64,000 nt of DNA. It comes from an uncultured Planctomycetota bacterium. Its GTDB lineage: Bacteria > Planctomycetota > Planctomycetia > Isosphaerales > Isosphaeraceae. The notes below the pieces were generated by a model. It did not search any database and was not told the DNA's origin. It saw nothing but the letters and a program-made list of their open reading frames with translations. Made by a program: the position numbers and the translations under genes. Of this stretch, positions 20,974-37,819 are shown in pieces (within the stretch, counting starts at the first letter, position 1; each line of letters starts with the position of its first letter). The stretch spans positions 5,856,001 to 5,920,000 of the forward strand of contig CAVTTN010000002.1 of assembly GCA_963737655.1 (NCBI GenBank), given 5' to 3'.

Positions 20974-21353
20974 TCTTCGTGAACTCTTTGGCTGGGAACG
21001 GCCATCGACGCGCGACACTACCCCAACCCCAGGCTTTGTGGCCGGGCAGCGGCGAGGTCCGGGTAGCAAACCGACGGATTCAAGAGCGGCGGACGAGGCG
21101 CGGGCCGAGAGGGGAGTCGGTTACGCTTGCAGTCTCTTCGACGGGAACATCCCCGCGAGTCGGCTCGCGGGGCGTCGCCAATGACCGGATCACGACCTCT
21201 CGGGCCAGGCTAACCTACGGGCAGGGAGCACCAAGGTGGAGACGGCCGGGAGGCCCGCGCCACACTCAGGCTACGCCGCGCCGGGTCGGCGGGCAAGTCG
21301 TCCCCGACCCCCGTTCACGCCCCGTCGGGAGCGGACGAAGGCCGCAGGATGGT
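20974..21353. mobile_element. 380-bp attC-inserted element, copy 1
   Basis: TCTTCGTGAACTC...CCGCAGGATGGT between CGCC and TAAC of the attC R'' box. Confidence 0.9.
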
Positions 21354-21449
21354 TAACCTCGCGCTGCAGCGGACCCGCACCGCCGCGACGGTTATCGTGC
21401 TATCATGGCTTACTCGGCGGTGCGGGTCCGCTGAGCTTTGGCGTTAGGC
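21354..21449 (+). other. attC site (R'' split by the element)
   Basis: TAAC-CTC-GCGCTGCAGCGGACCCGCACCGCCG...CGGCGGTGCGGGTCCGCTGAGC-GTTAGGC; extra G in L''. Confidence 0.9.
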
Positions 21450-21564
21450 GGCGGAGAACACCCCGTCGTCGCGTCGTGCCTGAAACCTCCTATCATCACG
21501 TCGAAGCTCCCCCGATCAGGCTCGCAACACCGGTCGGGAGTGAACGGCGGGAGTCGATCGCGCC

Positions 21565-21930
21565 ATGGAGAATGCCTCGCACTACCGCGATGATCCCAGG
21601 CGATTAGAGGCCGCTGAGCTGTTGGGCACATTGTTCTCATCGGCTCCGCGTCCGGCGGCGGAAATCCTGACCATCGCGAGGAAGCTGGAGGGCCATGACG
21701 GGGTCGGGTTCTTCAAGTTGCCGGTCCCCTATTTCATCAAATCGAATGGTATCGTGCTTAAGTCCGGATTAAACTCGATGAGGGGCGCGGTGAGTTCGCT
21801 CATAGCCGATCTAGAGGCGATGGACCCAGCGGCACTCGTCGTCGTCGATATCGACGCCAGTGCCCTGGGCGGTGGCCTGGCACCTGAAGAGCCGGTGCCA
21901 CCCGACAGCCGACCGGACGCCTCTTCGTGA
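21565..21930 (+). CDS. Cassette gene: hypothetical protein
   Basis: 121-aa ORF between attC sites; its stop codon lies inside element copy 2. Confidence 0.55.
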   Translation: MENASHYRDDPRRLEAAELLGTLFSSAPRPAAEILTIARKLEGHDGVGFFKLPVPYFIKSNGIVLKSGLNSMRGAVSSLIADLEAMDPAALVVVDIDASALGGGLAPEEPVPPDSRPDASS

Positions 21931-22301
21931 ACTCTTTGGCTGGGAACGGCCATCGACGCGCGACACTACCCCAACCCCAGGCTTTGTGGCCGGGCAGCGG
22001 CGAGGTCCGGGTAGCAAACCGACGGATTCAAGAGCGGCGGACGAGGCGCGGGCCGAGAGGGGAGTCGGTTACGCTTGCAGTCTCTTCGACGGGAACATCC
22101 CCGCGAGTCGGCTCGCGGGGCGTCGCCAATGACCGGATCACGACCTCTCGGGCCAGGCTAACCTACGGGCAGGGAGCACCAAGGTGGAGACGGCCGGGAG
22201 GCCCGCGCCACACTCAGGCTACGCCGCGCCGGGTCGGCGGGCAAGTCGTCCCCGACCCCCGTTCACGCCCCGTCGGGAGCGGACGAAGGCCGCAGGATGG
22301 T
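21922..22301. mobile_element. 380-bp attC-inserted element, copy 2
   Basis: Identical to copy 1 as read. Confidence 0.9.
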
Positions 22302-22398
22302 TAACCTCGCGCTGCAGCGGACCCCGCACCGCCGCGGCGCCTTCTCTGTTATCCTGCCCCTCTCGGCGGTGCGGGTCCGCTGAGCTTAGGTGTTAGGC
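22302..22398 (+). other. attC site
   Basis: TAAC...imperfect hairpin...GTTAGGC (22392-22398). Confidence 0.9.
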
Positions 22399-22450
22399 GG
22401 CTCCAAAGAACCTCTGGCGTTATCGCCACCCTCGAAGTGGAGATTCAGCG

Positions 22451-23125
22451 ATGAGGAATCGAACAACGTCGCTATTTGTCAGTCTGGTCGTGATGGCCTC
22501 AGCCAGTGGCGCCAAGGGCGACCTACTTATCAACCCAGGGGCCGAGACGGGCGACCTGACCGGCTGGACCAAGGGCGGGGTCTCGAACCCGTTCGTCGAC
22601 AACGGGTCCTTCGACCCGGGCATCAATCCTCACTCCGGTCGCTTCGATTTCGTCGGCGGCACGGGCGCGTTCGGGACGCTCACCCAGAACGTCTCCTTGG
22701 CCGGCGCTCCGGGAGTTACCGACGCCCAGATCGATAGCGGGATCGTCTCTGCTCAGGTATCCTTCTGGGAGCAGGGACTCAACCAAGGCCCCACCAGCGA
22801 TAACGGCTTCGTCTCGCTCACCTTCCGTGACGCGAACAACTCGGTGTTGGGCACCGTCTCTACTCCAGTGATCGATTCTCACGACCTGACCTGGGAGAAC
22901 TTCACCGGGAGCTTCGCGGTCCTGGCTGGCACTCGTTCTATCGATTACACGATGAACTTCACGCGCCATGTCGGCAGCGATAACGATGCATTTTTCGACG
23001 ACAACAGCCTCACGGTCTCGGTTAATTCCGTGCCGGAGCCGACCAGTCTCTTTATGTTGGGGTCCGGTGCTCTGGCGGTTCTCGGCTACGCCCGGCGGCG
23101 AAGGGTGCAGACCGCCTCTTCGTGA
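22451..23125 (+). CDS. Cassette gene: PEP-CTERM protein
   Basis: Signal peptide; LLINPGAETGDLTGW; VPEPTSLFMLGSG...RRRR. Confidence 0.9.
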   Translation: MRNRTTSLFVSLVVMASASGAKGDLLINPGAETGDLTGWTKGGVSNPFVDNGSFDPGINPHSGRFDFVGGTGAFGTLTQNVSLAGAPGVTDAQIDSGIVSAQVSFWEQGLNQGPTSDNGFVSLTFRDANNSVLGTVSTPVIDSHDLTWENFTGSFAVLAGTRSIDYTMNFTRHVGSDNDAFFDDNSLTVSVNSVPEPTSLFMLGSGALAVLGYARRRRVQTASS

Positions 23126-23496
23126 ACTCTTTGGCTGGGAACGGCCATCGACGCGCGACACTACCCCAACCCCAGGCTTTGTGGCCGGGCAGCGGCGAGG
23201 TCCGGGTAGCAAACCGACGGATTCAAGAGCGGCGGACGAGGCGCGGGCCGAGAGGGGAGTCGGTTACGCTTGCAGTCTCTTCGACGGGAACATCCCCGCG
23301 AGTCGGCTCGCGGGGCGTCGCCAATGACCGGATCACGACCTCTCGGGCCAGGCTAACCTACGGGCAGGGAGCACCAAGGTGGAGACGGCCGGGAGGCCCG
23401 CGCCACACTCAGGCTACGCCGCGCCGGGTCGGCGGGCAAGTCGTCCCCGACCCCCGTTCACGCCCCGTCGGGAGCGGACGAAGGCCGCAGGATGGT
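23117..23496. mobile_element. 380-bp attC-inserted element, copy 3
   Basis: Identical to copy 1 as read. Confidence 0.9.
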
Positions 23497-23593
23497 TAAC
23501 CTCGCGCTGCAGCGGACCCCGCACCGCCGCGGCGCTCACTCTGCTATCATGGCTCACTCGGCGGTGCGGGTCCGCTGAGCTTTGTTGTTAGGC
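23497..23593 (+). other. attC site
   Basis: TAAC...hairpin...GTTAGGC (23587-23593). Confidence 0.9.
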
Positions 23594-23615
23594 GGCGGGG
23601 TTAGGGGGGTCGTCG

Positions 23616-23981
23616 ATGCATGCGGGTCACCCCGAACCGACGGAGCGTTGGGGAGCGGTCCCCGAGTGGTACGCCGCTTTCGCTTCGGAGCGGCACTGGG
23701 AGTTTCTCACTCCCATGGTCGGCTTCACGCGATGGGTCGGCTCCTTGCCCATCGCCGCTATGCTGTATCCGCACACATCGCACGAATACCTTTGCGTGCA
23801 ACTGCGGCCCGGGCATCTTCCCGACGAGCCATTGGTCTTCGCATGCGTGCGCCCCGACGGTCAGTTCGAGTGCGGGCTCCAAGGGTGCAAGGGACAACTT
23901 CTGTCGTGTCGTACCAGCCCGATCGAGTCGGCTCACGATGCGTTCGCTTCGGCCCTCATCGGGTTGGGCCTCGTGGCCTGA
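23616..23981 (+). CDS. Cassette gene: hypothetical protein
   Basis: 121-aa ORF starting about 20 bp after attC and filling the cassette. Confidence 0.6.
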   Translation: MHAGHPEPTERWGAVPEWYAAFASERHWEFLTPMVGFTRWVGSLPIAAMLYPHTSHEYLCVQLRPGHLPDEPLVFACVRPDGQFECGLQGCKGQLLSCRTSPIESAHDAFASALIGLGLVA

Positions 23982-24007
23982 TCCACCCGGCATCGGTCGA
24001 CGCCGCC

Positions 24008-24387
24008 TCTTCGTGAACTCTTTGGCTTGGAACGGCCATCGACGCGCGACACTACCCCAACCCCAGGCTTTGTGGCCGGGCAGCGGCGAGGTCCGGGTAG
24101 CAAACCGACGGATTCAAGAGCGGCGGACGAGGCGCGGGCCGAGAGGGGAGTCGGTTACGCTTGCAGTCTCTTCGACGGGAACATCCCCGCGAGTCGGCTC
24201 GCGGGGCGTCGCCAATGACCGGATCACGACCTCTCGGGCCAGGCTAACCTACGGGCAGGGAGCACCAAGGTGGAGACGGCCGGGAGGCCCGCGCCACACT
24301 CAGGCTACGCCGCGCCGGGTCGGCGGGCAAGTCGTCCCCGACCCCCGTTCACGCCCCGTCGGGAGCGGACGAAGGCCGCAGGATGGT
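24008..24387. mobile_element. 380-bp attC-inserted element, copy 4
   Basis: One substitution (G>T at 24028) relative to the other copies. Confidence 0.9.
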
Positions 24388-24484
24388 TAACCTCGCGCTG
24401 CAGCGGACCCGGCCCGCCGCGGCGCTTTCTGGTAATATCAAGGTCAATCTCGGCGGGCCGGTCCGCTGAGCTTTGTCGTTAGGC
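24388..24484 (+). other. attC site
   Basis: TAAC...GGACCCGGCCCGCCG/CGGCGGGCCGGTCC...GTTAGGC (24478-24484). Confidence 0.9.
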
Positions 24485-24501
24485 GGCGGAGGGCTACGGA
24501 G

Positions 24502-25398
24502 TTGAAGCGTGAAGCGCGACTCAACGAGACTATAGACGCAATCCTTGAGGATTTCATTGCGATCGGGTCGCCTCGTGCTGGTGCGCTGCTCAGCAACGAT
24601 GCTGATCCTGAATTCATCCGGGGTGTTCAGGCTGCGATTGTTTCGCTTGAAATGGGAATTTCATTATCTTATGCTGAAAAGCGATACGTCCCACCAGCAG
24701 GCCCAATCGTCCTCCCAAAACGGTACATCTTGTTTCAAGGCGCTTATCGTACCGCCGTTGATCATGTTAGTCGCATAAAGAAAAAGTGGAGACAGCGACC
24801 CGATGAGGAGCAGATTTGCAGTGTTGGCGGTATCGTGTTCTCAAATGTTGCTCTTCGGCGAGTGGAGGGCACCTTCCGCGCGGCGGGTCTATTGTTTCGA
24901 ATAGGATATATGCTCGAAGCCCGAGCAGTTGCACGAACTATTTTGGAACAAGTAGCGTGGTCTTATGCAGTCCGCGACATTATTGATTTTGATCAAGCAT
25001 CTAAATTGAGTCCTACAAAATGTATTTCGGAGTTAAAGAAATTGCTGCCTTACGTTGGGCGGCTTTATGGGGATTTAAGTGAAGAGACGCACCTAGGGTT
25101 GGAAGAGCATGGTCGCTTCCTGCGTATTGAGGGAAATACCTCGAAAGTGCTTTTTTGTCATGGCGAAGATAGTTGGGAGAGCGGGCTAGTTTTGTTGAAT
25201 TTGGCAGACATCTGGGCTGTTGTCTTTGAATGCTCCCAGCGAGCATTCGTGTTGCAGCCGGAATGCTGGTCCGCGAAAATCAACGGCTTCGAGCTCAACA
25301 AAGATCGCCCTATGGTCAAGACCATCGAAGAATACTACGCCGACGCCGATGGAATAGCTGAGATGGCGGCCGATCTCAGGGATAATGCGGACGCCTAA
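24502..25398 (+). CDS. Cassette gene: AT-richer hypothetical protein, DUF5677/HEPN-like
   Basis: GGAGG RBS and TTG start; ARAVARTILE and YGDLSEETH motifs; ends GCC TAA (R''), remainder of attC lost. Confidence 0.65.
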   Translation: MKREARLNETIDAILEDFIAIGSPRAGALLSNDADPEFIRGVQAAIVSLEMGISLSYAEKRYVPPAGPIVLPKRYILFQGAYRTAVDHVSRIKKKWRQRPDEEQICSVGGIVFSNVALRRVEGTFRAAGLLFRIGYMLEARAVARTILEQVAWSYAVRDIIDFDQASKLSPTKCISELKKLLPYVGRLYGDLSEETHLGLEEHGRFLRIEGNTSKVLFCHGEDSWESGLVLLNLADIWAVVFECSQRAFVLQPECWSAKINGFELNKDRPMVKTIEEYYADADGIAEMAADLRDNADA

Positions 25399-25787
25399 AG
25401 GCGGAAAAGGGGACGAAGGCGGAAAAGGGGACGGAGGGAATTAGGGGCGGAAAAGGCGGAAAAGGGGACGGAGGGAATTAGGGGCGGAAAAGGGGTCAGG
25501 AGCCGAAAACGGGTTTATTTAGGCGCAGTTTCGGCTCCTGACCCCTTTTCCGCCCTCGTTTTCGGCTCCTGACCCCTTTTCCGCCTTTGACCCCTTTTCC
25601 GCCTTGACCCCTTTTCCGCCTCCCCGCAAATCCGGGGATTCTGCGCCACTTTCGATGTCTACTTCATGTGGGGCGGAAAAGGGGACGGTGGGAATAAACA
25701 AGATTAATACAACCTATTTATTCCCTCCGTCCCCTTTTCCGCCCCCCCGTCCCCTTTTCCGCCCCCCGTCCCCTTTTCCGCCCCCCG
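25399..25787. repeat. Cluster of GGCGGAAAAGGGG(AC/TC) REP-like repeats enclosing an attI-like fragment
   Basis: Many direct and inverted copies; 25621-25668 matches the leader end at 28857-28903. Confidence 0.85.
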
Positions 25788-25850
25788 AAGGATGCTGTTG
25801 CGATTGAGTACGAGCAACGCTTTATCGATTCGTGCAGTTGAGCCGAGCGA

Positions 25851-27815
25851 TTACTCACCCCGGGAACCACCCGGCGCCCAGTTTCCGGCGAATTTGCCGG
25901 CCCGCAAGTCCGGCAACAACTTCAGGATGCAGTCTCCCGGGATGACCATACCTCCGTGCGGACCGGGCCTGGCGATCGTGACCCCGATCGCACGCCCGGT
26001 GAGATCTACGATGGGACCCCCGCACTCGTAGGTAAAGAACGGCACGGCGCACTCGATCACCGTGGGAAAGTCGTCCGCCCGATAGTTGGTGTCGCCGTAA
26101 CGCGTTTCCGGCGCCAGGGGGAGCAACAGATCCATCATCGTGCCGCCCCTCTCGAGGCGGACCGGCACGACGTCCCCTGCCCGTCGGTGCTTGACCGCTT
26201 CCAGGACGTCGGCTTCGGCCTGAACTGAGCGGCCGTCGATGCTACGCAGGAGATCGTGTGGCTTGATGCCGGCGGAATCGGCCAGGCCGAAGGCACCCGT
26301 AACGCGATAGACGGTCGCTCGGGGTAGGCCGAACGCGGCTCGCAGCGAGTAACCACCGATCGGCCGCGGGATTCCGTGGATTTTCGGGCGCCCGGCGGGT
26401 ATCCGCAACGGCAGGGTCTCGGTCGGACGGACCGGCGCAGCGAGATCGCGACGCGGTACGCTGACCACGCCGACGGCCAGCGGCTGCTCGGTGCCGACGG
26501 CCGTCAGGAGCGTCCCGAGCGGGGGATCGAAGTCATCGGCCCACCGCACCGGCTCCAGGCCCGACGCCGGCACCGTGAGCAAGGCCAGGTCGAATGCCGG
26601 GTCGACGCCGGCGACCCGTGCGGACACGACCTTGCCATCCGGGAGGCGGCACGTCGGCCGGTTGGGCAGTTCACTCGCCTTCGTGACCACCCATCCGTCG
26701 GCGGCGACGACCGTGCCCAGGGCGACGGCGACCCCCTCGTTCAGCACGACGACTACGCTGGGGCGAGTCGGCTCCGCGATCGACCGGTATCGAGCCAACG
26801 TCGCGGAGCCCTGGGAGTAGTCCGCCTGTTGGAGACGTGCGCTGGCAAGAAATTCGCCGTCGGTCCTGGCGACGCCCCCTTTGCCGGGCGGAGAGATCTC
26901 TCCGCTTCGCATCGTGTCCATCAGGGAGTCGATGAGCTTGCTCCCCGCGACTTGCCACAGGCCGAATCCGCCGCGACGCTGGAAGCCGGCGTCAAGATCA
27001 CGCCCGAGCGCCAGCCGTCCGTCGTTGCGATGCACGATCCCCAGCAACTTTCCGTCGAGGTCGAAGAAAGGGCCGCCCGAGTCGCCGCCGGCCACCATGC
27101 AATCAGTGGCAAAAAATTCCGCCGTCCCGCCGATCACGCGGCCGAGGCGCACGGGAGCGGATCGGTCCTTGCGGTATCCGAGCGGGTGGCCGATCTTGAG
27201 GACCCAGTCGCCCGCCTCGACCGGGGCCGTGGCGCTGAGCGGCACGTGCGGGTACGGACCGGGCTCGAGCAACCGCAGGAGAGAGAGGTCATAATCGCGA
27301 TTCGCGCCCAGCAGTTCGGCGGGGCACTCGCTGCCGTCGTGGAGGATGACCGTCGTCCTCTCGCCCGCCTTGCCGGACGGCCTGTCCGCCTGATTCGCCG
27401 CGTGGTGTCCATCCTCGGAAGGCTTCTCGTGGCTGACGTGCCACTGCGACAGGACGACCCCGTCGGCGGTGATGATCACCCCGGAGGCATGGTCCTGGTG
27501 TCGCCCCACCTTCGATGGCTTCTTGTAGGGATTCTTCACGGCAACGACGGACGGGAGAACCGCCCGGGCCGACCTGCGGACCCGTTCCTCCAGTTGCGTG
27601 AGGTCGCCCGCCTCACGCCGGACGGTCGGACCGACGCCGCGGTCGTATCCGACCACATCGTCCGCCTGGTCCGGCAAGTAAGTCATCCAGAGACGGATGG
27701 CCAGCCAGCCAGAGAAGACGGCGATGATGAACAATGAGATATAAGAAACTCGCGTTCGCCAGGTGCGACGGGAGCCGACGGCGGTGGTTGCGGGCCAGGC
27801 GGGCACCATTCGCAT
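25851..27815 (-). CDS. Trypsin-like (S1C) serine protease with two protease domains and a PDZ domain
   Basis: TM; SGVIITADGVVLSQWH; DLSLL; GDSGGP; second domain TKASEL...ECGGP; PDZ (AGIKPHDLLRSIDG). Confidence 0.85.
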   Translation of the reverse strand: MRMVPAWPATTAVGSRRTWRTRVSYISLFIIAVFSGWLAIRLWMTYLPDQADDVVGYDRGVGPTVRREAGDLTQLEERVRRSARAVLPSVVAVKNPYKKPSKVGRHQDHASGVIITADGVVLSQWHVSHEKPSEDGHHAANQADRPSGKAGERTTVILHDGSECPAELLGANRDYDLSLLRLLEPGPYPHVPLSATAPVEAGDWVLKIGHPLGYRKDRSAPVRLGRVIGGTAEFFATDCMVAGGDSGGPFFDLDGKLLGIVHRNDGRLALGRDLDAGFQRRGGFGLWQVAGSKLIDSLMDTMRSGEISPPGKGGVARTDGEFLASARLQQADYSQGSATLARYRSIAEPTRPSVVVVLNEGVAVALGTVVAADGWVVTKASELPNRPTCRLPDGKVVSARVAGVDPAFDLALLTVPASGLEPVRWADDFDPPLGTLLTAVGTEQPLAVGVVSVPRRDLAAPVRPTETLPLRIPAGRPKIHGIPRPIGGYSLRAAFGLPRATVYRVTGAFGLADSAGIKPHDLLRSIDGRSVQAEADVLEAVKHRRAGDVVPVRLERGGTMMDLLLPLAPETRYGDTNYRADDFPTVIECAVPFFTYECGGPIVDLTGRAIGVTIARPGPHGGMVIPGDCILKLLPDLRAGKFAGNWAPGGSRGE

Positions 27816-27945
27816 CGGGGCATCTCCTCCGGGGAGGCCGTCGCCATCCGATTAAAGTCACTGGCCATAGGCTTGACGTGGGACGACGCTCGATTCTACC
27901 GGAATTCTACAATTGTCGGAATGCTCTCCTCCCAACCGAGTGAGG

Positions 27946-28255: not shown

Positions 28256-28444
28256 CGGAAAGGGGGACGAGGCGGAAAGGGGGACGCGAGGCGGAAAGGG
28301 GGACGGAGGGAATTATGAGCTTTCCGAGCCACTGAAGGCCGCCTCCCCGTGGGGACGGAAAAGGGGTCAGGGGACGGAAAAGGGGTCAGGAGCCGAAAAT
28401 GGATTTATTTAGGCCCATTTTCGGCTCCTGACCCCTTTTCCGCC
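28253..28444. repeat. REP-like repeat cluster with inverted doublet
   Basis: GGCGGAAAGGGGGAC x3; GGAAAAGGGGTCAGGAGCCGAAAATGG...CCATTTTCGGCTCCTGACCCCTTTTCC. Confidence 0.85.
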
Positions 28445-28448
28445 CAAA

Positions 28449-28910
28449 GAATCCTGCGAGGCCCCCTGCGCTCCGGGGGACGACCCGATCGAGACGCAAC
28501 CGAGGAGGCCGCGACGATCGTCCATTAGAACGAATCTACAGGTACAGAAAGAATCAAATATCGATTACGTCGGCCCCGAACCGGTGGGTCGGCAAGGTCC
28601 CCCGATCTCCGAATTCGGGGTAACCCAGCTCGCACGTTGCCCCAGTTTTCTGATTTCCCGGCGGAGCACGCGGCGAGGATAACCCAGAGCACCCAGAACG
28701 CCAGGAAGGAACCGGACCACCGGCCGGATCGAATCCAGGAGGAAAAAATCCAAGAAATCCCTTGCGAGGCGAGTTCCCCGCCGGCAAAATCAAAATCCGC
28801 CTCAGGATTATACGTGCTAAACGACGTGATAAGTCACGTCGTTTAGCACGTATAATCCCGCAAATTCGGGGATTCTGCGTCACTTTCGATGTCTGCTTCA
28901 TGTTAGGCGG
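28449..28910 (+). repeat. Array leader copy B ending in an attI-like site (GTTAGGC 28902-28908)
   Basis: Paralogue of 19938-20335, with an extra palindrome. Confidence 0.65.
28805..28858. promoter_or_regulatory. Perfect 25-bp-arm palindrome with TATAAT on both strands
   Basis: GGATTATACGTGCTAAACGACGTGA-TAAG-TCACGTCGTTTAGCACGTATAATCC. Confidence 0.55.
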
Positions 28911-29054: not shown

Positions 29055-30044
29055 ATGAAACGGATCGTCCAGACATCCACGATGGTCGCATTGCTGGCCG
29101 TGGCCGGTAGGCCGGCTCGGGCCGACATGGCGACCTACGCATTCGCGCTCAACAACGCGGGGGTGACCGTCGGTGCCTATTACGACGAATCGAGCACCGT
29201 CCCCTACTATGGTCACGGCTTCCTCTATTCCGGCGGCCAGTACACGACTCTCGACGACCCCCTGGCGGCCTACGGCACGGAGGCGACCTCGATCAACAAC
29301 TCCGGTCAGGTTGTGGGAAATTATTTTGATGGCTCTGGCAAGTCACAGGACTTCCTCTATTCGGGGGGGATGTTCACCACGCTCAACCTCCCCTTCGGGA
29401 CGATCCGGAGCACCCAGGCGCTGGGGATCAACGACTCCTCGGCGATCGTGGGCTACTACGAAGACGGCTCGCGGGTCTATCACGGCTTCCTCTCCTCCGG
29501 GGGGGCCTATTCCACGATCGACGTCCCCGGCGCGAGCTTCACGGTCACGGCCGGGATCAACAACGCCGGCCAGATCGTGGGCAGTTTCGACGACGCCACC
29601 GGGGGCCACGGCTTCCTTTACTCCGGCGGGATCTTCACCGCGCTGGACGACCCCTTAGGAGTGAACGGCACGGTCGCTTCGGGGATCAATAATCTGGGCC
29701 AGATCGTCGGCTACTACACGGACAGCTCGAACAAGGCCCACGGCTTCATCGAGTCGGGCGGCCAGTACACCACGATTGACTATCCCGGCGGAATCAACGG
29801 CTCGTTCGCGAATGGGATCAACGACTCCGGATCGGTCGCCGGCTATTTCTACGACGACACGAACGGATTTCTGTATGCCAACGGGTCGTTTACCGTGCTC
29901 TCGGTGCCGGAGCCGTCGTCGCTCTTGCATTTCATGACCGCGTCGCTGGTCGGTCTCGGCGGGCTGATCCATCGTGGCCTGGCGGGACGCGGAAAAGGGG
30001 ACGGCGGAAATTGTGGGCCTGCCGAGTCGCCGAAGATCGCCTAA
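29055..30044 (+). CDS. Cassette gene: extracellular HAF-like repeat PEP-CTERM protein
   Basis: Repeats GINNxGQIVG...HGFLYSGG; VPEPSS; ends GCC TAA of a truncated attC (30039-30049). Confidence 0.9.
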   Translation: MKRIVQTSTMVALLAVAGRPARADMATYAFALNNAGVTVGAYYDESSTVPYYGHGFLYSGGQYTTLDDPLAAYGTEATSINNSGQVVGNYFDGSGKSQDFLYSGGMFTTLNLPFGTIRSTQALGINDSSAIVGYYEDGSRVYHGFLSSGGAYSTIDVPGASFTVTAGINNAGQIVGSFDDATGGHGFLYSGGIFTALDDPLGVNGTVASGINNLGQIVGYYTDSSNKAHGFIESGGQYTTIDYPGGINGSFANGINDSGSVAGYFYDDTNGFLYANGSFTVLSVPEPSSLLHFMTASLVGLGGLIHRGLAGRGKGDGGNCGPAESPKIA

Positions 30045-30201
30045 CCTCGAGGCGGAAAAGGGGACGGAGGGAATTCTGAGCTTTCCGAGCCACTGAAGGC
30101 CGCCCCCACGGGGAGGCGACCTCTGCATGGCGCTTCCCTCGGCCGGGCGCTTCGTCTAGAGTGATCCCGACTCGGGGGCGGTCCGCAGACGAGAGGAACC
30201 C

Positions 30202-30588
30202 ATGCCCTTATTCGATGACGCCCCTCCCACGGACCATGCCGGCGGAGGCGGGAGCCGCTTCGATCCCATCAAAGTGCGGACTCGGCCGGCCTCCCGCCAG
30301 GAGCGGTATGTGAGCGGGGTCCTCCTGGCGTTCGGCTCGCTCGCCCTGTCGATGTGCGTTCAACAGACGTGGGCCCACGACTTCCGGGCCCCGAACAGCG
30401 GCTGGCGGCTATTCGGGATGTACCTGGTCCCGGCCGTCCTCTTTGCCCTCGCCCTCCATCAGAGGAGGGCCCGCCGCGTGATCGGGTCTGTTTCGGAGGA
30501 GGAGGGGGATGGCGACGGGAGGCGAGGAAAGGGGTCAGGAGCGAGGCGAGGAAAGGGGTCAGGAGCCGATTTTGGCGGGCGGGTCTGA
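30202..30588 (+). CDS. Hypothetical two-TM protein, C-terminus running into REP repeats
   Basis: GAGG RBS; two hydrophobic segments; RGKGSG tail encoded by the repeats. Confidence 0.45.
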   Translation: MPLFDDAPPTDHAGGGGSRFDPIKVRTRPASRQERYVSGVLLAFGSLALSMCVQQTWAHDFRAPNSGWRLFGMYLVPAVLFALALHQRRARRVIGSVSEEEGDGDGRRGKGSGARRGKGSGADFGGRV

Positions 30589-30666
30589 GAATCGGCTCCT
30601 GACCCCTTTCCGCCTCCCGGGCGGCGGAAGACAGGTTACGTCCATTCCGATCTTGGAGGTTAGAAC

Positions 30667-30897: not shown

Positions 30898-30978
30898 CGC
30901 CGCATCGCCCGTAGAGAGACAAATGGGGTCAGTTCAATAGGTCGGCCCAGTTACCCATTCAGGCCGGGCCGAGACGCC

Positions 30979-31358
30979 TCTTCGTGAACTCTTTGGCTGG
31001 GAACGGCCATCGACGCGCGACACTACCCCAACCCCAGGCTTTGTGGCCGGGCAGCGGCGAGGTCCGGGTAGCAAACCGACGGATTCAAGAGCGGCGGACG
31101 AGGCGCGGGCCGAGAGGGGAGTCGGTTACGCTTGCAGTCTCTTCGACGGGAACATCCCCGCGAGTCGGCTCGCGGGGCGTCGCCAATGACCGGATCACGA
31201 CCTCTCGGGCCAGGCTAACCTACGGGCAGGGAGCACCAAGGTGGAGACGGCCGGGAGGCCCGCGCCACACTCAGGCTACGCCGCGCCGGGTCGGCGGGCA
31301 AGTCGTCCCCGACCCCCGTTCACGCCCCGTCGGGAGCGGACGAAGGCCGCAGGATGGT
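30979..31358. mobile_element. 380-bp attC-inserted element, copy 5
   Basis: Identical to copy 1 as read. Confidence 0.9.
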
Positions 31359-31456
31359 TAACCTCGCGCTGCAGCGGACCCCGGCCACGGGCCGCGTTTT
31401 TTCTGATCTCGAGCTCACTGTTCCGTGGCCGGGTCCGCTGAACTTGGTCGTTAGGC
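31359..31456 (+). other. attC site
   Basis: TAAC...CCGGCCACGG/CCGTGGCCGG...GTTAGGC (31450-31456). Confidence 0.9.
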
Positions 31457-31636
31457 GGCGTCGAGCGACGGCCCCCGATGAACTCGAAGTCGTCTTCGGC
31501 TAGAGGCCGGGTGCATGAGTCAACGGGCGGCCACTTCCTCAGGAAGAATAAACTGATACCTTATTCCCCCTATTCCCCTGCAAGCATGACCTCCTGCGAA
31601 TGAGCCGAGCCGAGACGGAAAAGCTCTGGAGGAACA

Positions 31637-32689
31637 ATGCGTTCTTTCCTCTTCGCCCTGATCCCGGGCCTCTTCCTGGCCGACTCCTCGCGGGCCGATG
31701 ATCCGCCCGGGCCGCCGCCGCTGAAGATCGCCGGTACGCAAATCCAGACCCTCGATGGGAAGGCCGTGCGCCTGCGAGGTGTCAATCTCCCCGGCCTGAT
31801 GTGGGGCGAGAGGGCACACCTTGGGTCGTCGATCCGCGTCGCTACCGAAGAGTGGGGCGCCAACATCATCCGGGTGTGCCTGTCGCCGGATCTCTGGTAT
31901 GGCAAGGCGAAGGGGGACAAGGACGGAGGCGCAGGCTACCGTAAGACCGTGCATGCCGTCGTCGACCAGGTAGCCGCCCGGCACTGCTACGTGATCCTCG
32001 TCCTGACCTGGTACGGGGATGCCCGGTGGGGCGAGAACCATGTCTCGCATCACAAGATGCCCGACGACGATAGCGTCGCGTTCTGGGCCGACCTGGCGAC
32101 GGCCTTCGCCCACCAACCGGCCGTCCTTTTCGGCCTCTACAACGAGCCATGGGGCGTCCCCTGGCAAGTCTGGCGCAACGGCGGCACGGTCACGGAAGGG
32201 AACGATAAGGTCCCCGGTGACAGGCGCGAGTACCACACCCCCGGCCTGCAAAAGCTCGTCGACGTCTGCCGCTCCAAGGGGGCACGGAACCTGATCGTCG
32301 CCGGCGGCCTGGATTGGGCCTACGACCTGACCGGCATCGCCGAGGGGTTTGCCCTGAAAGACCCGAAGGGGCACGGCGTGGTGTACGATACACACATGTA
32401 TTCCGGGAAAAAATGGCACATGCGCAATGGCAAGAAGGATTGGGAATGGGACCGCGTGGTGCTGTCAGGGGGCGGGAAGTATCCGGTCATCATCGGCGAG
32501 TTCGGCGACGACGCGGCGGAATTCAATGCGAAGGTCCTGGAGTTCGCCGCCGAGCACGATCTCCCCTGGATCGCATGGAGTTTCCACCCCAGCGCCAAAC
32601 CCTGCCTGATCAAGGACTGGAACTACGTGCCGACGAACATCGGCCGGCAGGTGAAGGACGCCCTTAAAAAGGCACCCGGCACGAGGTGA
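31637..32689 (+). CDS. Cassette gene: glycoside hydrolase family 5 (cellulase-like)
   Basis: LRGVN, GANIIRV, YNEP (acid/base), HMY, IIGEFG (nucleophile), WIAWSF; signal peptide. Confidence 0.9.
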   Translation: MRSFLFALIPGLFLADSSRADDPPGPPPLKIAGTQIQTLDGKAVRLRGVNLPGLMWGERAHLGSSIRVATEEWGANIIRVCLSPDLWYGKAKGDKDGGAGYRKTVHAVVDQVAARHCYVILVLTWYGDARWGENHVSHHKMPDDDSVAFWADLATAFAHQPAVLFGLYNEPWGVPWQVWRNGGTVTEGNDKVPGDRREYHTPGLQKLVDVCRSKGARNLIVAGGLDWAYDLTGIAEGFALKDPKGHGVVYDTHMYSGKKWHMRNGKKDWEWDRVVLSGGGKYPVIIGEFGDDAAEFNAKVLEFAAEHDLPWIAWSFHPSAKPCLIKDWNYVPTNIGRQVKDALKKAPGTR

Positions 32690-32785
32690 GCCGAAGGGAC
32701 GAAGTTCGGGCCGTTGACGCGGGAAGAGGGGACGGCGGGAAATGGGGACGGCGGGAATTACGAGGTTACTGTATCGTCCAAGATC

Positions 32786-32885
32786 GCCTAACCTCGCGCA
32801 GCCGCGGACCCCGCACCGCCGCGGCGCTTTCTGTGTTATCATCGCCTTCTCGGCGGTGCGGGTCCGCTGAGCTTGGTCGTTAGGC
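32786..32885 (+). other. attC site, not interrupted
   Basis: GCCTAAC...hairpin...GTTAGGC. Confidence 0.9.
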
Positions 32886-32891
32886 GGCTCG

Positions 32892-33521
32892 ATGCCGAAT
32901 CAAATCTCCCACCCCATTCCCTCGACGGGAGGCGTTCTCTTCCCCGAGGATCTGGCTGACCTGGGCGGCCGGCTTGTCGCCGGTCGGGCCGAGTTGATTT
33001 CGTTGCGCGGCGATCGCGGCGTAGGTTGCCTCACCTCTGTCGAGAGCCGACTGACTTGGCTTGATGACTTCGAGATCTTTGTCTTTCAAGTCCTTGCGGA
33101 TGGAACTCGGAAGGCTATCCGCAAGGCCACGAGTGAGGACTTTGAGGAGTTTCGTGATCCGATCCGGATTCAGGGCGAGGGGGTTCCGATCTGCATCTGG
33201 CTCGATCCGGTAAACCCGGGCTATTGGCCCAAGATCGAGCTGCACGACGGTCAAGAAGTCCTCATCGGTAGAGGTCCTCACTGCCATGTCGTCCTCACTG
33301 TAGACACCGTCGGGAAAACGCACTGCTCCATCTCGCATCGCGATGGTGTCACGGTGGTCGAGGATTTTGGCACGAGGTACGGGGTTTCCGTGAATGGCCT
33401 GCGCATCGATCGGGCGAGTCTCGCCCCGGGCGACCTGGTCGGGATCGGCGGGGTCGAAGTCGGGGTCGGCGGGGTAGAATATGTCGTGCGAGGACGCCAC
33501 AACGAACTGGCCGACGCCTAA
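32892..33521 (+). CDS. Cassette gene: FHA-domain protein
   Basis: VLIGRGPHCHVVL...VGKTHCSI...EDFGTRYGVSVNG...LAPGD; stop TAA within R''. Confidence 0.75.
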   Translation: MPNQISHPIPSTGGVLFPEDLADLGGRLVAGRAELISLRGDRGVGCLTSVESRLTWLDDFEIFVFQVLADGTRKAIRKATSEDFEEFRDPIRIQGEGVPICIWLDPVNPGYWPKIELHDGQEVLIGRGPHCHVVLTVDTVGKTHCSISHRDGVTVVEDFGTRYGVSVNGLRIDRASLAPGDLVGIGGVEVGVGGVEYVVRGRHNELADA

Positions 33522-33615
33522 CCTCGCGCAGCCGCGGACCCCGCACCGCCGCGGCGCTTTCTGTGTTATCATCGCCTTCTCGGCGGTGCGGGTCCACTGA
33601 GCTTATGCGTTAGAC
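33516..33615 (+). other. attC site, not interrupted
   Basis: GCCTAAC...GTTAGAC; near-identical to 32786-32885. Confidence 0.9.
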
Positions 33616-33633
33616 GGCTCGTTCGGAGGCGTT

Positions 33634-33999
33634 ATGATCCAGGGCTTACGGACGGCCATCTACCCCGTCGGGGACATCATCGAAGGCAGGTCGTGGTATC
33701 GCCGCGTGCTCGACTGCGAGCCCTACTTTGATGAGCCGTTCTACGTCGGGTTCTCGGTCGGCGGGTTCGAATTGGGGCTGGTCCCCGACGGCGTACCGAG
33801 CCCCGACGGCGTCCATGCCTTCTGGGGCGTTCCGAACGCGGCGGCGGAACTGGACCGCCTCGCGGGACTCGGGGCCGTCGTCTAGGAGCCGGTCAAGGAC
33901 GTCGGGGGAGGCATCAAGGTGGCGTCCGTGAAGGACCCGTTCGGGAATGTCTTCGGAGTCATCGAGAACCCGCACTTCGACCCCAAGGAAGTGCGATAA
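33634..33999 (+). pseudogene. Cassette gene: VOC/glyoxalase protein with internal TAG
   Basis: MIQGLRTAIYPV...FELGL...GAVV*EPVKDVGGGIKVASVKDPFGNVFGVIEN; in-frame stop at 33883-33885. Confidence 0.85.
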
Positions 34000-34003
34000 C
34001 GCC

Positions 34004-34103
34004 GCCTGACCTCGCGCAGCCGCGGACCCCGCACCGCCGCCGAGCTCACCCTGAGATCAAGCTTCACTCGGCGGTGCGGGTTTGCTGAGCTCCGTCGTTA
34101 GGC
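34004..34103 (+). other. attC site with mutated R'' (GCCTGAC)
   Basis: Hairpin arms conserved; GTTAGGC 34097-34103. Confidence 0.8.
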
Positions 34104-34122
34104 GGCTCTGTTCGGAGGCGGT

Positions 34123-34653
34123 ATGGGGGCGGCGATCGCCTTTGTGACGTGCCTAGCGTGCTCCCTCGTCCTGATCCCTGTCCACGAGTTGGGCCACTAC
34201 CTGGCGGGCTGGGCGGCGGGGCTTCCGCGGCACGATATGCGCATCAGGCTGCTGGCCTTCCCCCAGTTCGTCGCCCTGCGGCACGAGGGGGCGTGGGCAT
34301 CGCCGAGGGAGCATGGGGAGGACTACGCCGCGATGTGCCAGCATCCGACCACCCCAGGGCGGATCTTCCTCTTCACGGCGGGTGGCTTCCTGCTCGAAAC
34401 CGCACTCGCCGCAACCTTCGGCGGCGTGGCGCTATCGCTGGGCTATCCCGGGCTGACCCTGGTGATCGTCGGGATGTCGCTCGGCATGAACGCCGTCTAT
34501 GTCCTCGTGATGGACCTGCCCTGGGCCTTGAAATTCGGCCACCCGTGCGGTGATATGACGGGGCTTTGGTGGACGGCGAAGCTGCCCGCTACGATCCTGG
34601 CCGCCGCTCTGCTGGGCATTCGGGGCGGCCTCCTCTTGCGGGCGATCGGTTAG
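34123..34653 (+). CDS. Cassette gene: membrane zinc-metalloprotease-like protein
   Basis: VHELGH (HExxH) in TM context, AGG and PCGD motifs; stop codon falls inside the IS66-type end. Confidence 0.7.
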   Translation: MGAAIAFVTCLACSLVLIPVHELGHYLAGWAAGLPRHDMRIRLLAFPQFVALRHEGAWASPREHGEDYAAMCQHPTTPGRIFLFTAGGFLLETALAATFGGVALSLGYPGLTLVIVGMSLGMNAVYVLVMDLPWALKFGHPCGDMTGLWWTAKLPATILAAALLGIRGGLLLRAIG

Positions 34654-34907
34654 CGTCCGAGATTCCCAGTTGCCGCGCGGTGTGGCTGAATCGGGTTGGT
34701 CGTTCACGAGCGGAGATGGCTTCCTTGACCGCATTCCGATGCGCATGTGCACTCTAATCGCGTTCGGCCTGACGCCAAGACCATGGGCATGTCCTTGGAC
34801 GACCTGGCTCATTGCTTTGGCTGATCGGCCCGAGTTCGCTTGGTCATGGCCAGCGGTTTGAACGCCTTTGTCAACGCACGTGTTCATTTCTAGGGCGGGA
34901 GCTATCC

Positions 34908-35606
34908 ATGAACCTCTACGTCGGCACCAGTGGCTATTCGTGCAAGCCCTGGAAGGGCACGTCTTATCCCGAGGATCTGCCGGTTTGGCAGATGCTCCGC
35001 TTTTACGGCGAGCGGTTTCGTACGGTCGAGATCAACAGCACGTTCTACGGCATGCCCAAGGTTTCGATCCTGGAGGGCTGGGCAGGCGCGGTCCCCACCG
35101 ATTTCCAATTCGTGCTCAAGGCGCCCAAGGAGATCACGCATGTGCGGAAGCTCCACGACGCGGGCGATTTGGTGTCGCGATGGCTCGAAGTCGCCGGAGC
35201 CTTGTCAGAGCATCAGGGGCCGATGTTGTTCCAATTGCCGCCGACGTCGAAGAAGGACATGCCGCGGCTGCGTGCGTTTCTTGCGCTGCTGCGATCGCAT
35301 CGGGGCGTGGCGTTCGAGTTCCGTCATCCGTCGCGGTTCGACGACGAGGTCCTGGGACTGCTTCGCGATCATCGCGCGGCCCTCTGCGTCGCCGATGCCG
35401 AGGGTGAGCTCGACGTTCCCTGGGTGGCGACCGCGGATTGGGGCTATCTGCGGTTGCGGCGGCCCGACTACGGCGACGCGGAACTGAAGACCTGGGTGAA
35501 GCGGGTCCAGGGACAAGGCTGGGGGAGTGCGTTCGTGTTCATCAAGCACGAGGATGAAGGCAAGGGGCCACGGCTGGCGCGGCGATTCATGGAGCTGGCC
35601 GCGTAG
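34908..35606 (+). CDS. DUF72 family protein
   Basis: YVGTSGY, VEINSTFY, LKAPKEITH, LFQLPP, FEFRHPS, YLRLR. Confidence 0.92.
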   Translation: MNLYVGTSGYSCKPWKGTSYPEDLPVWQMLRFYGERFRTVEINSTFYGMPKVSILEGWAGAVPTDFQFVLKAPKEITHVRKLHDAGDLVSRWLEVAGALSEHQGPMLFQLPPTSKKDMPRLRAFLALLRSHRGVAFEFRHPSRFDDEVLGLLRDHRAALCVADAEGELDVPWVATADWGYLRLRRPDYGDAELKTWVKRVQGQGWGSAFVFIKHEDEGKGPRLARRFMELAA

Positions 35607-35633
35607 GGCGTCCGTTTGGACTCGAGGTGCCCG

Positions 35634-35750
35634 AGTTGGTTCCTGGGCAAAGGCGGTGATCACCAAGCCGGAAAGCCCATCGAAGCCCTTGCGGAGATCG
35701 GTGGCCGGAGTGTGGAGGAACACGCGGACGGAATGAGGCAGGCTGATCAT
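35634..35750 (-). pseudogene. tnpB: IS66 TnpB fragment
   Basis: MISLPHSVRVFLHTPATDLRKGFDGLSGLV, then truncated. Confidence 0.85.
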
Positions 35751-36115
35751 CGCGAGCCTCCGTGGTCGGTTTTGGCCCGTGCCACGGCGCGGACGAGGCG
35801 GCAGGCCAAGCGGGCGTTCGCGGTGGGGATCCGAAGGCGGATTCCATTGGGAAGGTCGGCCTCGATGGGCACCGGCCCAGCAACGGTAAGGTCCGAGACA
35901 CGAACAGCGACCGGGACGAGAACCGGCGGCACGGGCACGGTGCGACAACGATCCGCCAGTTCGACGAGCCGAAGGCGGCGTTTCCAAGAATGAAACGAAG
36001 CCACCGAGAGCCGTTCCTGGTCGCAGAACCGACCGATCGTCAAACCGCTGACGCCTTGCCGGCGAACGCGATCGCGCCAAAGCCCATGGAGCTCAAGGTT
36101 GGGGGTTCTCGCCAA
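35747..36115 (-). CDS. tnpA: IS66 accessory protein TnpA
   Basis: WRDRVRRQGVSGLTIGRFC...SFHSWKRRL...IEADLPNGIRLRI; ATGA overlap with tnpB. Confidence 0.85.
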   Translation of the reverse strand: MARTPNLELHGLWRDRVRRQGVSGLTIGRFCDQERLSVASFHSWKRRLRLVELADRCRTVPVPPVLVPVAVRVSDLTVAGPVPIEADLPNGIRLRIPTANARLACRLVRAVARAKTDHGGSR

Positions 36116-36204
36116 GGAGTGGACTCCTGAGAAGGGACGTACGGATCCGCCTCCCAGGCGAACAGACCCCGCAAGGATGGTTATCTCGGACGCTTACGGC
36201 GATC

Positions 36205-36304
36205 GCCCAACCCGGCGCTGCAGCGGACCCCACCCGGCGCGACGGTTTGTGCTACGATCGAAGGTCGCTCGGGCGGGCGGGTTCGCGGAGCTTTGGCGGT
36301 AGCG
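36205..36304 (+). other. Degenerate attC site
   Basis: GCCCAAC-CCG-GCGCTGCAGCGG...GCGGAGC...GGTAGCG (GTT changed to GGT). Confidence 0.7.
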
Positions 36305-36315
36305 GTAGGAGGCGT

Positions 36316-36777
36316 ATGCGACGCTTCATCATACGGCGGCTTGCGGTCGCGGCGATCGGCCTCTTCGTGGCCGCCGTCGCCCTGCTCGCCGCATCGTTTC
36401 ACCCCGATTGGCCGTCGCACCCCCTTCAACTCGCCCACGACCGATGGGGCAACGGCATCGCCTACGTGCAAGTCGCGGGCGGGCGCGCCAGCCTCTTCAG
36501 CGAGATCGACTTCGACTCGGCCGACTCTCCCAAACCTTATGTCGCCAACCCTCGAACCATCGTCGCGCCGAAGGTGACGAAGCACTATCAGTTCGCTCTC
36601 CCGGGGTTGAACTTCCAGTTCTGCCGGTTCGCCGAAGGGCCGCCGACCTGGTCGCTCGGCCTCTCGTTGGCGATCCCCGCAGGCCTCTCGCTGATCGTCG
36701 CCCTTTTTCTCATCCGTCGATTGCGAGGCCGTCGGCCGCGGGATACCGTGGCCCACGACGGGGCCGCCTCTTCGTGA
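36316..36777 (+). CDS. Cassette gene: hypothetical two-TM protein
   Basis: AGGAGG RBS; stop codon inside element copy 6. Confidence 0.7.
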   Translation: MRRFIIRRLAVAAIGLFVAAVALLAASFHPDWPSHPLQLAHDRWGNGIAYVQVAGGRASLFSEIDFDSADSPKPYVANPRTIVAPKVTKHYQFALPGLNFQFCRFAEGPPTWSLGLSLAIPAGLSLIVALFLIRRLRGRRPRDTVAHDGAASS

Positions 36778-37148
36778 ACTCTTTGGCTGGGAACGGCCAT
36801 CGACGCGCGACACTACCCCAACCCCAGGCTTTGTGGCCGGGCAGCGGCGAGGTCCGGGTAGCAAACCGACGGATTCAAGAGCGGCGGACGAGGCGCGGGC
36901 CGAGAGGGGAGTCGGTTACGCTTGCAGTCTCTTCGACGGGAACATCCCCGCGAGTCGGCTCGCGGGGCGTCGCCAATGACCGGATCACGACCTCTCGGGC
37001 CAGGCTAACCTACGGGCAGGGAGCACCAAGGTGGAGACGGCCGGGAGGCCCGCGCCACACTCAGGCTACGCCGCGCCGGGTCGGCGGGCAAGTCGTCCCC
37101 GACCCCCGTTCACGCCCCGTCGGGAGCGGACGAAGGCCGCAGGATGGT
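36769..37148. mobile_element. 380-bp attC-inserted element, copy 6
   Basis: Identical to copy 1 as read. Confidence 0.9.
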
Positions 37149-37246
37149 TAACCTCGCGCTGCAGCGGGCCCCGAACCGCCGCGGTGCCCGTGCTTCGAGT
37201 CGAAGTTTGCTCGGCGGTGCGTGGCCGCTGAGCTTGGTCGTTAGGC
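37149..37246 (+). other. attC site
   Basis: TAAC...CCGCTGAGC...GTTAGGC (37240-37246). Confidence 0.85.
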
Positions 37247-37261
37247 CACGGGGGCATTCGC

Positions 37262-37744
37262 ATGGACTACGTTGTCCGCCTCGAACAGCTCGGCAGTGTT
37301 CCGCTTGCGGTGGTGCGCCGTCGCGCGGCGCGTGATGAACTCTCCAAGGTCGTCCCGGAGGGCTGCGGGACCGTGTGGAATGCCCTCCGGTCGCGGCGCG
37401 TGCCCGGAGCGGGTCGGCATGTCGCGGTCTACCTGGACGATCAAATCCACCTTGAAGTGGGCGTCGAGCTGGACGCCCCGTTCGCCGGGTCGGGCGAGGT
37501 CGTCGGCTCGGCAACCCCATCCGGCGCCGTGGCCACGACGACCCATTACGGGCCTTACGGGCGACTCAACGAAGCCCATGAGGCCCTTCGTCTCTGGTGC
37601 GAGGACCATGGGTATGCGTTGGCCGGCCCGAATTGGGAGGTCTACGGTCACTGGAAGGAGGAATGGGACGGCGAGCCGTCAAGAATCACCACCGAGGTCC
37701 ACTACCTGCTCGCCGCGGGCGGGGATTCGGCCGCCTCTCCGTGA
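37262..37744 (+). CDS. Cassette gene: GyrI-like effector-binding protein
   Basis: VATTTHYGPYGRLNEAHEALRLWC...GPNWEVY...TEVHYLL. Confidence 0.88.
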   Translation: MDYVVRLEQLGSVPLAVVRRRAARDELSKVVPEGCGTVWNALRSRRVPGAGRHVAVYLDDQIHLEVGVELDAPFAGSGEVVGSATPSGAVATTTHYGPYGRLNEAHEALRLWCEDHGYALAGPNWEVYGHWKEEWDGEPSRITTEVHYLLAAGGDSAASP

Positions 37745-37819
37745 ACCGGGCACGGATTTGTGCCTTCAGGGATTGATGATGTGTTCGAGTGATGGAGGAT
37801 CGGCATCGGGTGGGCCGGA

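What the first reader, a model, noticed from the sequence alone, without database searches (positions are those of the whole stretch)
20974..37746. Six copies of a 380-bp non-coding element inserted at one nucleotide of integron attC sites
Seen: copies at 20974-21353, 21922-22301, 23117-23496, 24008-24387, 30979-31358 and 36769-37148 are identical as read, except G>T at 24028. All have the same orientation and are flanked by CGCC on the left and TAACCTCGCGCTGCAGCGG on the right. Removing the element restores GCCTAAC, the R'' box that pairs with GTTAGGC and occurs intact at 32786 and 33516. The boundary is ambiguous by one T. There is no target duplication, no terminal IR and no recognisable ORF. 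Known: attC sites are targeted by IS1111-attC elements (IS110 family) and by group IIC-attC introns, which are typically larger and encode a recombinase or RT; this element lacks GTGYG and domain V. Inference: a recently active, non-autonomous, site- and orientation-specific attC parasite mobilised in trans, possibly a new family.
Basis: partly seen in the sequence, partly recalled or inferred. Interest (0 to 1): 0.93.

Follow-up and report, generated by a model that had tools for sequence, protein, structure and literature searches.

The report
Guide-RNA-only IS110 parasite of integron sites
The 380-base repeat is a stripped-down jumping element that has lost its enzyme gene but appears to have kept its own guide RNA, and it most likely borrows the enzyme of a related full-size element to insert itself at one exact base of the sites bacteria use to shuffle gene cassettes.

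Summary
Confirmed. The six copies are exact except G>T at 24028. The genome holds 28, all at one base of the attC R'' box. One cassette also occurs empty and 100% identical.

The element is a non-autonomous IS110 derivative: both IS ends plus a bridge-RNA-like module on the minus strand, without the recombinase gene. Six intact and two truncated 1.8-kb IS110 elements occupy the same attC base.

The mini's 7-nt target guide equals the attC sequence. All 35 filled profile-detected sites match it, against 18 of 44 empty ones. Its donor guide equals its own end and differs from the helper's at the same two positions as the ends. The RNA core is conserved between species.

The non-coding end lies upstream and the enzyme is 450 aa, so this is IS110-type, not IS1111-attC. 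MITEPpu9 is the published precedent. This scan reported transposase-less IS110 minis on other DNA before.

Not found in the searches made: an RNA-retaining mini with its own donor guide, and a second attC-targeting IS110 lineage. Expression and trans-mobilisation are inferred, not shown.

The parts
20974..21353 (-). mini-IS110 copy 1 (IS sense = minus strand; boundary ambiguous by one shared T/A)
21922..22301 (-). mini-IS110 copy 2
23117..23496 (-). mini-IS110 copy 3
24008..24387 (-). mini-IS110 copy 4 (G>T at 24028)
30979..31358 (-). mini-IS110 copy 5
36769..37148 (-). mini-IS110 copy 6
21096..21248 (-). two-lobed bridge-RNA-like core (copy 1), homologous to the non-coding end upstream of IS110 recombinases
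   Evidence: 12 of 149 sites differ from the G003 mini against 52 of 228 in the rest, p=1.4e-4
21210..21216 (-). target guide AGGTTAG = bottom strand of attC R'' plus the next bases
   Evidence: filled against empty sites
21134..21140 (-). donor guide CGAAGAG = the element's own right end (helper: CGGGGAG, equal to the helper's end)
20974..21095 (-). right end (RE) of the IS; its first 71 nt are 75% identical to the RE of a truncated recombinase-bearing element in G002
21249..21353 (-). left end (LE) of the IS, 5' of the RNA core
20979..20984 (.). sub-terminal inverted repeat, RE arm GTGAAC (contains the TGA that ends upstream cassette ORFs)
21313..21318 (.). sub-terminal inverted repeat, LE arm GTTCAC
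21241..21259 (.). 19-nt patch identical to the resident helper, absent from the old copies and from G003 (likely gene conversion)
21354..21449 (+). attC (filled), from TAAC to R' GTTAGGC
22302..22398 (+). attC (filled)
23497..23593 (+). attC (filled)
24388..24484 (+). attC (filled)
31359..31456 (+). attC (filled)
37149..37246 (+). attC (filled)
32786..32885 (+). attC (empty, guide-matching); bottom-strand hairpin z -3.8 with the R box paired
33516..33615 (+). attC (empty, guide-matching)
34004..34103 (+). attC (empty, one mismatch to the guide)
36205..36304 (+). attC (empty, degenerate, two mismatches to the guide)
20294..20334 (+). copy of the attI-like sequence found beside the genome's only intI (C2:6778244-6778284); heads the first array
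28870..28910 (+). second attI-like copy heading the second array

Best explanation
A non-autonomous IS110-family element made by deleting the recombinase gene from an IS110-type insertion sequence, leaving left end, bridge RNA and right end. Shown in sequence: the ends, the RNA homology, a target guide equal to the attC R'' sequence, a donor guide equal to its own end, precise insertion without duplication, and an intact helper at the same base. Inferred from IS110 biology: a minus-strand transcript yields a bridge RNA. That RNA loads the resident 450-aa IS110 recombinase in trans. The donor guide directs excision or copying of the 380-bp unit as a circle. The target guide directs its insertion into the outer edge of attC, antisense to the cassettes. 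The insertion leaves TAAC and the attC stem intact and supplies an in-frame TGA two codons in, so the cost to cassettes is probably low.
For: PF01548 found 8 matches in the genome: 7 in this family and 1 in another IS110. Six intact helper copies (1784-1802 bp) and two truncated ones share the mini's junction. All six encode 450 aa with D24, E67, D105, D108 and S337; NF033542 scores 251 bits against a cut-off of 140; the enzyme aligns with IS621. Mini positions 126-286 are 75% identical to the helper's upstream end. Donor guide and end change together, AA in the mini and GG in the helper. Across 47 distinct elements each donor guide equals its own end and each target guide its own flank; this holds in multi-copy families whose ends are fixed by flank divergence alone. 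Filled attC 35 of 35 match the guide, empty 18 of 44; deduplicated 33 of 33 against 17 of 35, p=4e-7. Guides are intact in 28 of 28 copies, in G003 and in the part covered by X4. The core is conserved against the flanks. Six of 17 consensus pairs show two-sided changes, 0 of 500 shuffles. The young lineage carries a helper-identical 19-nt patch.
Against: There are no expression data, no circle and no trans-mobilisation test. No sigma-70-like promoter was found in the element or across the end-to-end junction (best 7 of 12). Only one guide per lobe is clear. The second-half guides show weak, phylogenetically non-independent signal across the clade and fit the mini poorly. Junction selection used guide matches and is partly circular, and 6 rows were dropped before the count of 47. 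The shared core is one base, not the usual two. No intact element with the mini's own end was found in 121 genomes, and G000 is 87.7% complete, so the true helper is not proven.
Confidence: 0.72

Rival explanations
1. It has the same IS110 origin, but the mini's RNA is idle and it moves passively with the helper's recombinase and the helper's bridge RNA, as an ends-only MITE.
For: The helper has the same target guide. Its donor guide differs from the mini's end at two G positions that could pair as rG-dT wobbles (inference). No promoter was found.
Against: The RNA core is three times more conserved than the ends between species while it differs from the helper. The donor guide stays matched to the mini's own end in all 28 copies and in G003.
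Confidence: 0.2
2. It is self-guided but mobilised by a cognate parent recombinase that is unassembled or recently lost, not by the resident sister element.
For: G002 holds two truncated elements with the mini-type end, one with a recombinase fragment 68% identical to the helper. The genome is 87.7% complete.
Against: No such gene is in the 7.6-Mb contig. Fifteen identical copies lie interleaved with intact helpers. The young lineage carries a helper-identical patch.
Confidence: 0.06
3. The copies multiplied mainly by IntI cassette shuffling or duplication of attC sites that already carried the element.
For: Two pairs of copies share their left flank. The genome has an intact IntI.
Against: There are 26 distinct left flanks and 33 distinct filled attC bodies. 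An identical empty allele exists.
Confidence: 0.02

Closest known systems
MITEPpu9 / ssr9 of ISPpu9, Pseudomonas putida (PMC12288879: abstract, passages and first part of Discussion read; PMC8450116: passages)
   Same: Non-autonomous IS110-family unit with ends like the parent's, same target class as the parent, carries a non-coding region, proposed to use the transposase in trans; circles were detected there.
   Different: It targets REP, not attC, and has 8 copies against 28 here. In the passages read Ssr9 is treated as a regulator and is not assigned target or donor guides, although it pairs with the antisense RNA of the 5'-UTR and so may be a comparable bridge-RNA copy. Here the donor guide matches the mini's own end and not the helper's.
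IS1111-attC group (ISKpn4, ISPst6, ISPa21, ISPa25; passages of PMC11187229 and PMC3001079; the 2008-2009 primary papers were not read)
   Same: [quoted passage not shown]
   Different: Those are autonomous, with the non-coding region downstream and 330-350-aa enzymes. Here the region is upstream, the enzyme is 450 aa and the inverted repeat only 6 bp. Whether the base of insertion is the same was not checked.
IS621-type bridge RNA (PMC11208160 passages; PMC13626964 abstract)
   Same: Upstream two-lobed RNA with separate target and donor guides; the two bases after the target guide covary with the donor end, handshake-like (36 of 47); no target duplication.
   Different: Only one 7-nt guide per lobe is clear, and it lies on the 3' side of the loop. 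The shared core is one base. The element lacks the enzyme gene.
Group IIC-attC introns (PMC3001079 passages)
   Same: Insert into the bottom strand of attC, opposite to cassette transcription.
   Different: No intron ends and no Rfam match; homology is to IS110 ends.

Membership tests
IS110 family, autonomous | encodes DEDD plus Tnp recombinase | tested here: not met
   The mini has no such ORF. The helper has it: PF01548 and PF02371, NF033542.
non-autonomous IS110 (MITEPpu9-like) | both ends homologous to an autonomous IS110, no transposase, multiple dispersed copies | tested here: met
non-autonomous IS110 (MITEPpu9-like) | same target and position as the autonomous element, no duplication | tested here: met
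non-autonomous IS110 (MITEPpu9-like) | circular intermediate, transposase-dependent movement in trans | not testable with these tools
   Contigs of 4 runs showed no end-to-end joint, which proves nothing.
bridge RNA | guide matching the target and guide matching the donor, covarying across relatives | tested here: met
   target preference
bridge RNA | two guides per loop (left and right) | tested here: inconclusive
   Weak clade-wide signal at one offset per lobe, poor fit in mini and helper.
bridge RNA | conserved two-lobed structure | tested here: met
   17 pairs, 98.5% of cells paired, 6 with two-sided change; the structure was derived from the same alignment.
bridge RNA | expressed and bound by the recombinase | not testable with these tools
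   No RNA holder listed.
IS1111-attC | inserts near the 5' end of attC, antisense | tested here: met
IS1111-attC | long non-coding region downstream of tnp; enzyme 330-350 aa (PMC11187229) | tested here: not met
   Helper: about 290 nt upstream carrying the guides, 450 aa.
IS1111-attC | monophyly with ISKpn4, ISPst6, ISPa21 | not tested
   Reference sequences were not fetched and no tree was built.
group IIC-attC intron | intron 5' motif, domain V/VI, RT-encoding parent | tested here: not met
   No Rfam match in the element; the 3 RT matches lie away from the attC arrays.
classical MITE | terminal inverted repeats and target duplication | tested here: not met
integron attC (target) | R''/R' boxes, bottom-strand hairpin, one per cassette, array behind intI and attI | tested here: met
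   Hairpin z -2.6 to -6.8 in 5 of 5 folded; the same repeat follows intI (475 bits) and an attI-like site at C2:6.778 Mb.
integron attC (target) | recombined by IntI | not testable with these tools
   Needs an assay, for empty and for filled sites.

The most novel reading that the evidence does not exclude
A natural guide-RNA parasite. The mini expresses its own bridge RNA, loads a non-cognate sister recombinase and reprogrammes it to move only the mini: its donor guide mismatches the helper's end, while the helper's guide could still wobble-pair with the mini's. It has thereby outlived its parent, outnumbers the intact helper 28 to 6, and with the helper fills 35 of 88 profile-detected attC sites while leaving them usable. 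Such RNA-retaining minis arise repeatedly (independent cases in G014 and G067), within a widespread IS110-type clade that targets attC separately from IS1111-attC.
Probability: 0.5. Interest if true: 0.78.

Novelty: new variant of a known kind. Interest (0 to 1): 0.63.

Why it matters
It would be a natural case of a bridge RNA travelling without its enzyme and steering a borrowed recombinase through its own donor guide. That makes cross-reactivity and orthogonality between bridge RNAs and non-cognate recombinases directly testable with a natural pair. It also points to a second lineage of RNA-guided attC parasites, a heavy load on chromosomal cassette arrays, and a 380-bp natural cargo frame that addresses integron sites. 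Surveys that take only sequences next to a recombinase gene (as in the passages read of 10.64898/2026.10.21.760802) would miss such elements.

Tried and rejected
Folding the single copy gave no excess structure. Rfam gave 4 chance-level matches, none inside the element. A group II intron or RT helper was rejected. IntI as mobiliser was rejected: the junction is in R'', not at the R' crossover (position recalled), and the homology is to IS110. Plasmid collection: no DNA match to the mini; protein relatives are under 60% identical and annotated only as IS110 family transposase. Metagenome pattern scan: 120 stretches, 80 fetched. None showed a both-ended mini: 19 lacked a recombinase hit, 10 of these were read, and the other 9 had under 270 nt downstream. 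The search for an intact parent with the mini's end found 10 of 121 genomes with the pattern; outside G000 and G003 there were only two truncated G002 elements and apparently chance matches. Promoter scans were negative. No RNA holder was listed. Runs X1-X3 cover only the attC part. Second-half guides were not established. Literature searches found no paper on an IS110-type attC-targeting element or on a bridge-RNA-only element with its own donor guide. The library lacks most subscription papers, ISfinder could not be searched, and supplements were not read (those of bioRxiv preprints are closed); any of these may list such elements. In 10.64898/2026.08.14.744561 and 10.64898/2026.10.21.760802 the terms attC and non-autonomous do not occur in the main text.
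Full report
Observation. The six copies, their coordinates, flanks and the single G>T are as stated. The window lies in a 7.6-Mb contig that holds 28 full-length copies, 15 of them identical. All are followed by TAACCT, and 26 of 28 left flanks are distinct. One cassette occurs both filled (C2:1971064) and empty (C2:6787841-6787940, 100 of 100 identical), so insertion is precise and makes no duplication. A relative of 83% sits at the same base in G003, with one full and three partial hits. Contigs of soil run X4 show a relative with a new left flank and the same right junction.

The target is attC. The repeat has R'' and R' boxes and a bottom-strand hairpin (z -2.6 to -6.8 in 5 of 5 folded). 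It separates small unrelated genes. It also follows the genome's only integron integrase (TIGR02249, 475 bits) and an attI-like sequence, whose copies head the two arrays in this window. The window arrays have no integrase nearby. A profile seeded with the window's ten sites found 88 hits: 27 with the mini, 8 with the helper, 44 empty and anchored, 2 with another left context and 7 not anchored.

The helper. Positions 126-286 of the mini are 75% identical to the non-coding end upstream of an IS110 recombinase on the minus strand. That element (six copies of 1784-1802 bp, two truncated) has the same two junctions in attC. All six full copies encode 450 aa with D24, E67, D105, D108 and S337. The role of these residues is taken from the alignment with IS621 and from recall. 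The family call is NF033542, 251 bits against 140. The mini is left end plus RNA module plus right end with the gene cut out. Its right end is closer to a truncated recombinase-bearing element of G002 (75% over 71 nt; fragment 68% identical to the helper) than to the helper's, so it descends from a sister lineage. No intact member of that lineage was found in 121 genomes searched.

The RNA module. On the minus strand it has two lobes of the form TGGYG...CCCGN-guide. The first guide, AGGTTAG (21210-21216), equals the attC bottom strand at the junction. The second, CGAAGAG (21134-21140), equals the mini's own end. The helper has CGGGGAG, and its end carries the same two changes; I predicted this before seeing the end.

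Guides across relatives. Among 79 genome loci and 80 metagenome loci, 66 gave both junctions and 49 distinct RNAs. I dropped 6 with doubtful left junctions and added 4 of our own. In these 47, mean matches were 5.8 of 6 (target) and 6 of 6 (donor), against 3.4 and 4.2 for swapped guides. That selection used the guides and is partly circular. The same holds, however, in multi-copy families whose ends are set by flank divergence, and at least ten different donor guides each match their own end.

Guides within this genome. All 35 filled sites match the target guide, against 18 of 44 empty ones; after de-duplication 33 of 33 against 17 of 35, p=4e-7. Both guides are intact in 28 of 28 copies. Between G000 and G003 the core differs at 12 of 149 sites and the rest at 52 of 228, p=1.4e-4. 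The consensus fold has 17 pairs, 6 with two-sided changes. The two bases after the target guide covary with the donor end (36 of 47 at the second base), like handshake guides.

Results against the reading. The single sequence folds no better than shuffles. Second-half guides are weak across the clade and fit the mini poorly. No promoter consensus was found. Only one base is shared at the two junctions.

Mechanism. The anatomy, guides, precise insertion and an intact helper are shown. The rest is inferred from IS110 biology (PMC11208160 and PMC11187229, passages; PMC13626964 and 10.64898/2026.08.31.748434, abstracts): transcription of the minus strand, loading of the helper enzyme, release of a circle, and guided insertion. 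The last of these papers reports that donor recognition alone suffices for excision and that the donor site is left intact, which would suit a self-guided element that multiplies.

Link to the helper, and cost to the host. The amplified young lineage carries 19 nt identical to the helper where old copies and G003 differ, which suggests exchange with the resident helper. By base-pairing logic the mini's donor guide mismatches the helper's end, while the helper's guide could wobble-pair with the mini's; this asymmetry is inference. Insertion leaves TAAC and the stem of attC. In 21 of 36 insertions an upstream ORF of 70 codons or more that would have ended at the R'' TAA now ends at a TGA two codons into the element. 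That TGA belongs to the sub-terminal repeat, which non-attC relatives also have, so it is probably fortunate rather than evolved.

Wider picture. Of 49 metagenomic relatives with a GTTA-type guide and enough flank, 12 have an attC-like hairpin at the junction, against 0 of 49 control positions. So attC targeting extends beyond this genus. An RNA model matched 21 of 61 family genomes. Of 28 loci examined, G014 has two 488-489-nt enzyme-less, both-ended elements with matching guides. G067 has three copies of a unit of about 480 nt beside five full elements. Their targets were not tested as attC. RNA-retaining minis have thus arisen at least three times. The host taxon was not determined.

Comparison. 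It works like an IS110 bridge-RNA element. It is not an autonomous member, not IS1111-attC (non-coding end upstream, 450 aa against 330-350; no tree built), not a group IIC intron and not a classical MITE. The closest published case is MITEPpu9 (PMC12288879; PMC8450116), a non-autonomous IS110 unit at REP sites whose RNA is described as regulatory. Three earlier notes of this scan describe transposase-less IS110 minis in other genomes; I did not check them. Seven literature searches did not find an IS110-type attC element or a mini with its own donor guide. ISfinder, most subscription papers and supplements were not seen.

Verdict. Real, recently amplified and well explained as a non-autonomous IS110 derivative; a new variant of a known kind. 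Confidence is about 0.97 in the IS110 origin and 0.72 in self-guided mobilisation by the resident helper. Interest 0.63.

Noticed in passing
L280 and L300 (G014:C6, G014:C40): Two 488-489-nt enzyme-less IS110 minis with target guide GGGTTAG and donor guide TGGGGAG matching their junctions; one flank looks like a REP-type palindrome.
   Followed up: partly
L305, L306, L307 (G067:C1): Three copies of an enzyme-less unit of about 480 nt sharing ends with five full IS110 elements; similar enzyme-less left ends in G005, G013 and G023 without a right end found.
   Followed up: partly
window 19934-20305 and 28445-28815: Repeat of about 370 nt (91% identical) ahead of each array, partly similar to the region upstream of intI; a third copy at C2:1121563-1121928.
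   Followed up: partly
window 25387-25786, 28259-28445, 29985-30118, 30520-30615, 32720-32760, 3667-3805: Short purine-rich inverted and tandem repeats (GGCGGAAAAGGGGAC type). The same kind of sequence stands at the break points of the two truncated helpers and of a truncated attC.
   Followed up: no
window 34650-36200: A stretch without attC inside the array, with short repeats recalled as IS66-like ends near 34652, 35605 and 36190; 36171-36184 resembles the mini's end by 13 nt, probably chance.
   Followed up: no
L001 (G000:C2:4847135-4848600): A second, distant IS110 element with a weak match to the same RNA model, inserted in a copy of the attI-like sequence at the head of an array.
   Followed up: no
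L061: Tandem insertion: a second left end follows the right end of a full element after a few bases.
   Followed up: no
G000:C2:1975837-1976216: Mosaic mini: young-type right part, old-type left end, showing recombination among copies.
   Followed up: yes
window 48907-49187 and 61816-62100: Inverted pair of a repeat of about 290 nt with six copies in the genome, 80-87% identical.
   Followed up: no
G000:C2:4298601 and 819744: Two attC sites whose R'' reads GGTTAAC as in filled sites but with no element upstream; the first could be a deletion scar.
   Followed up: partly
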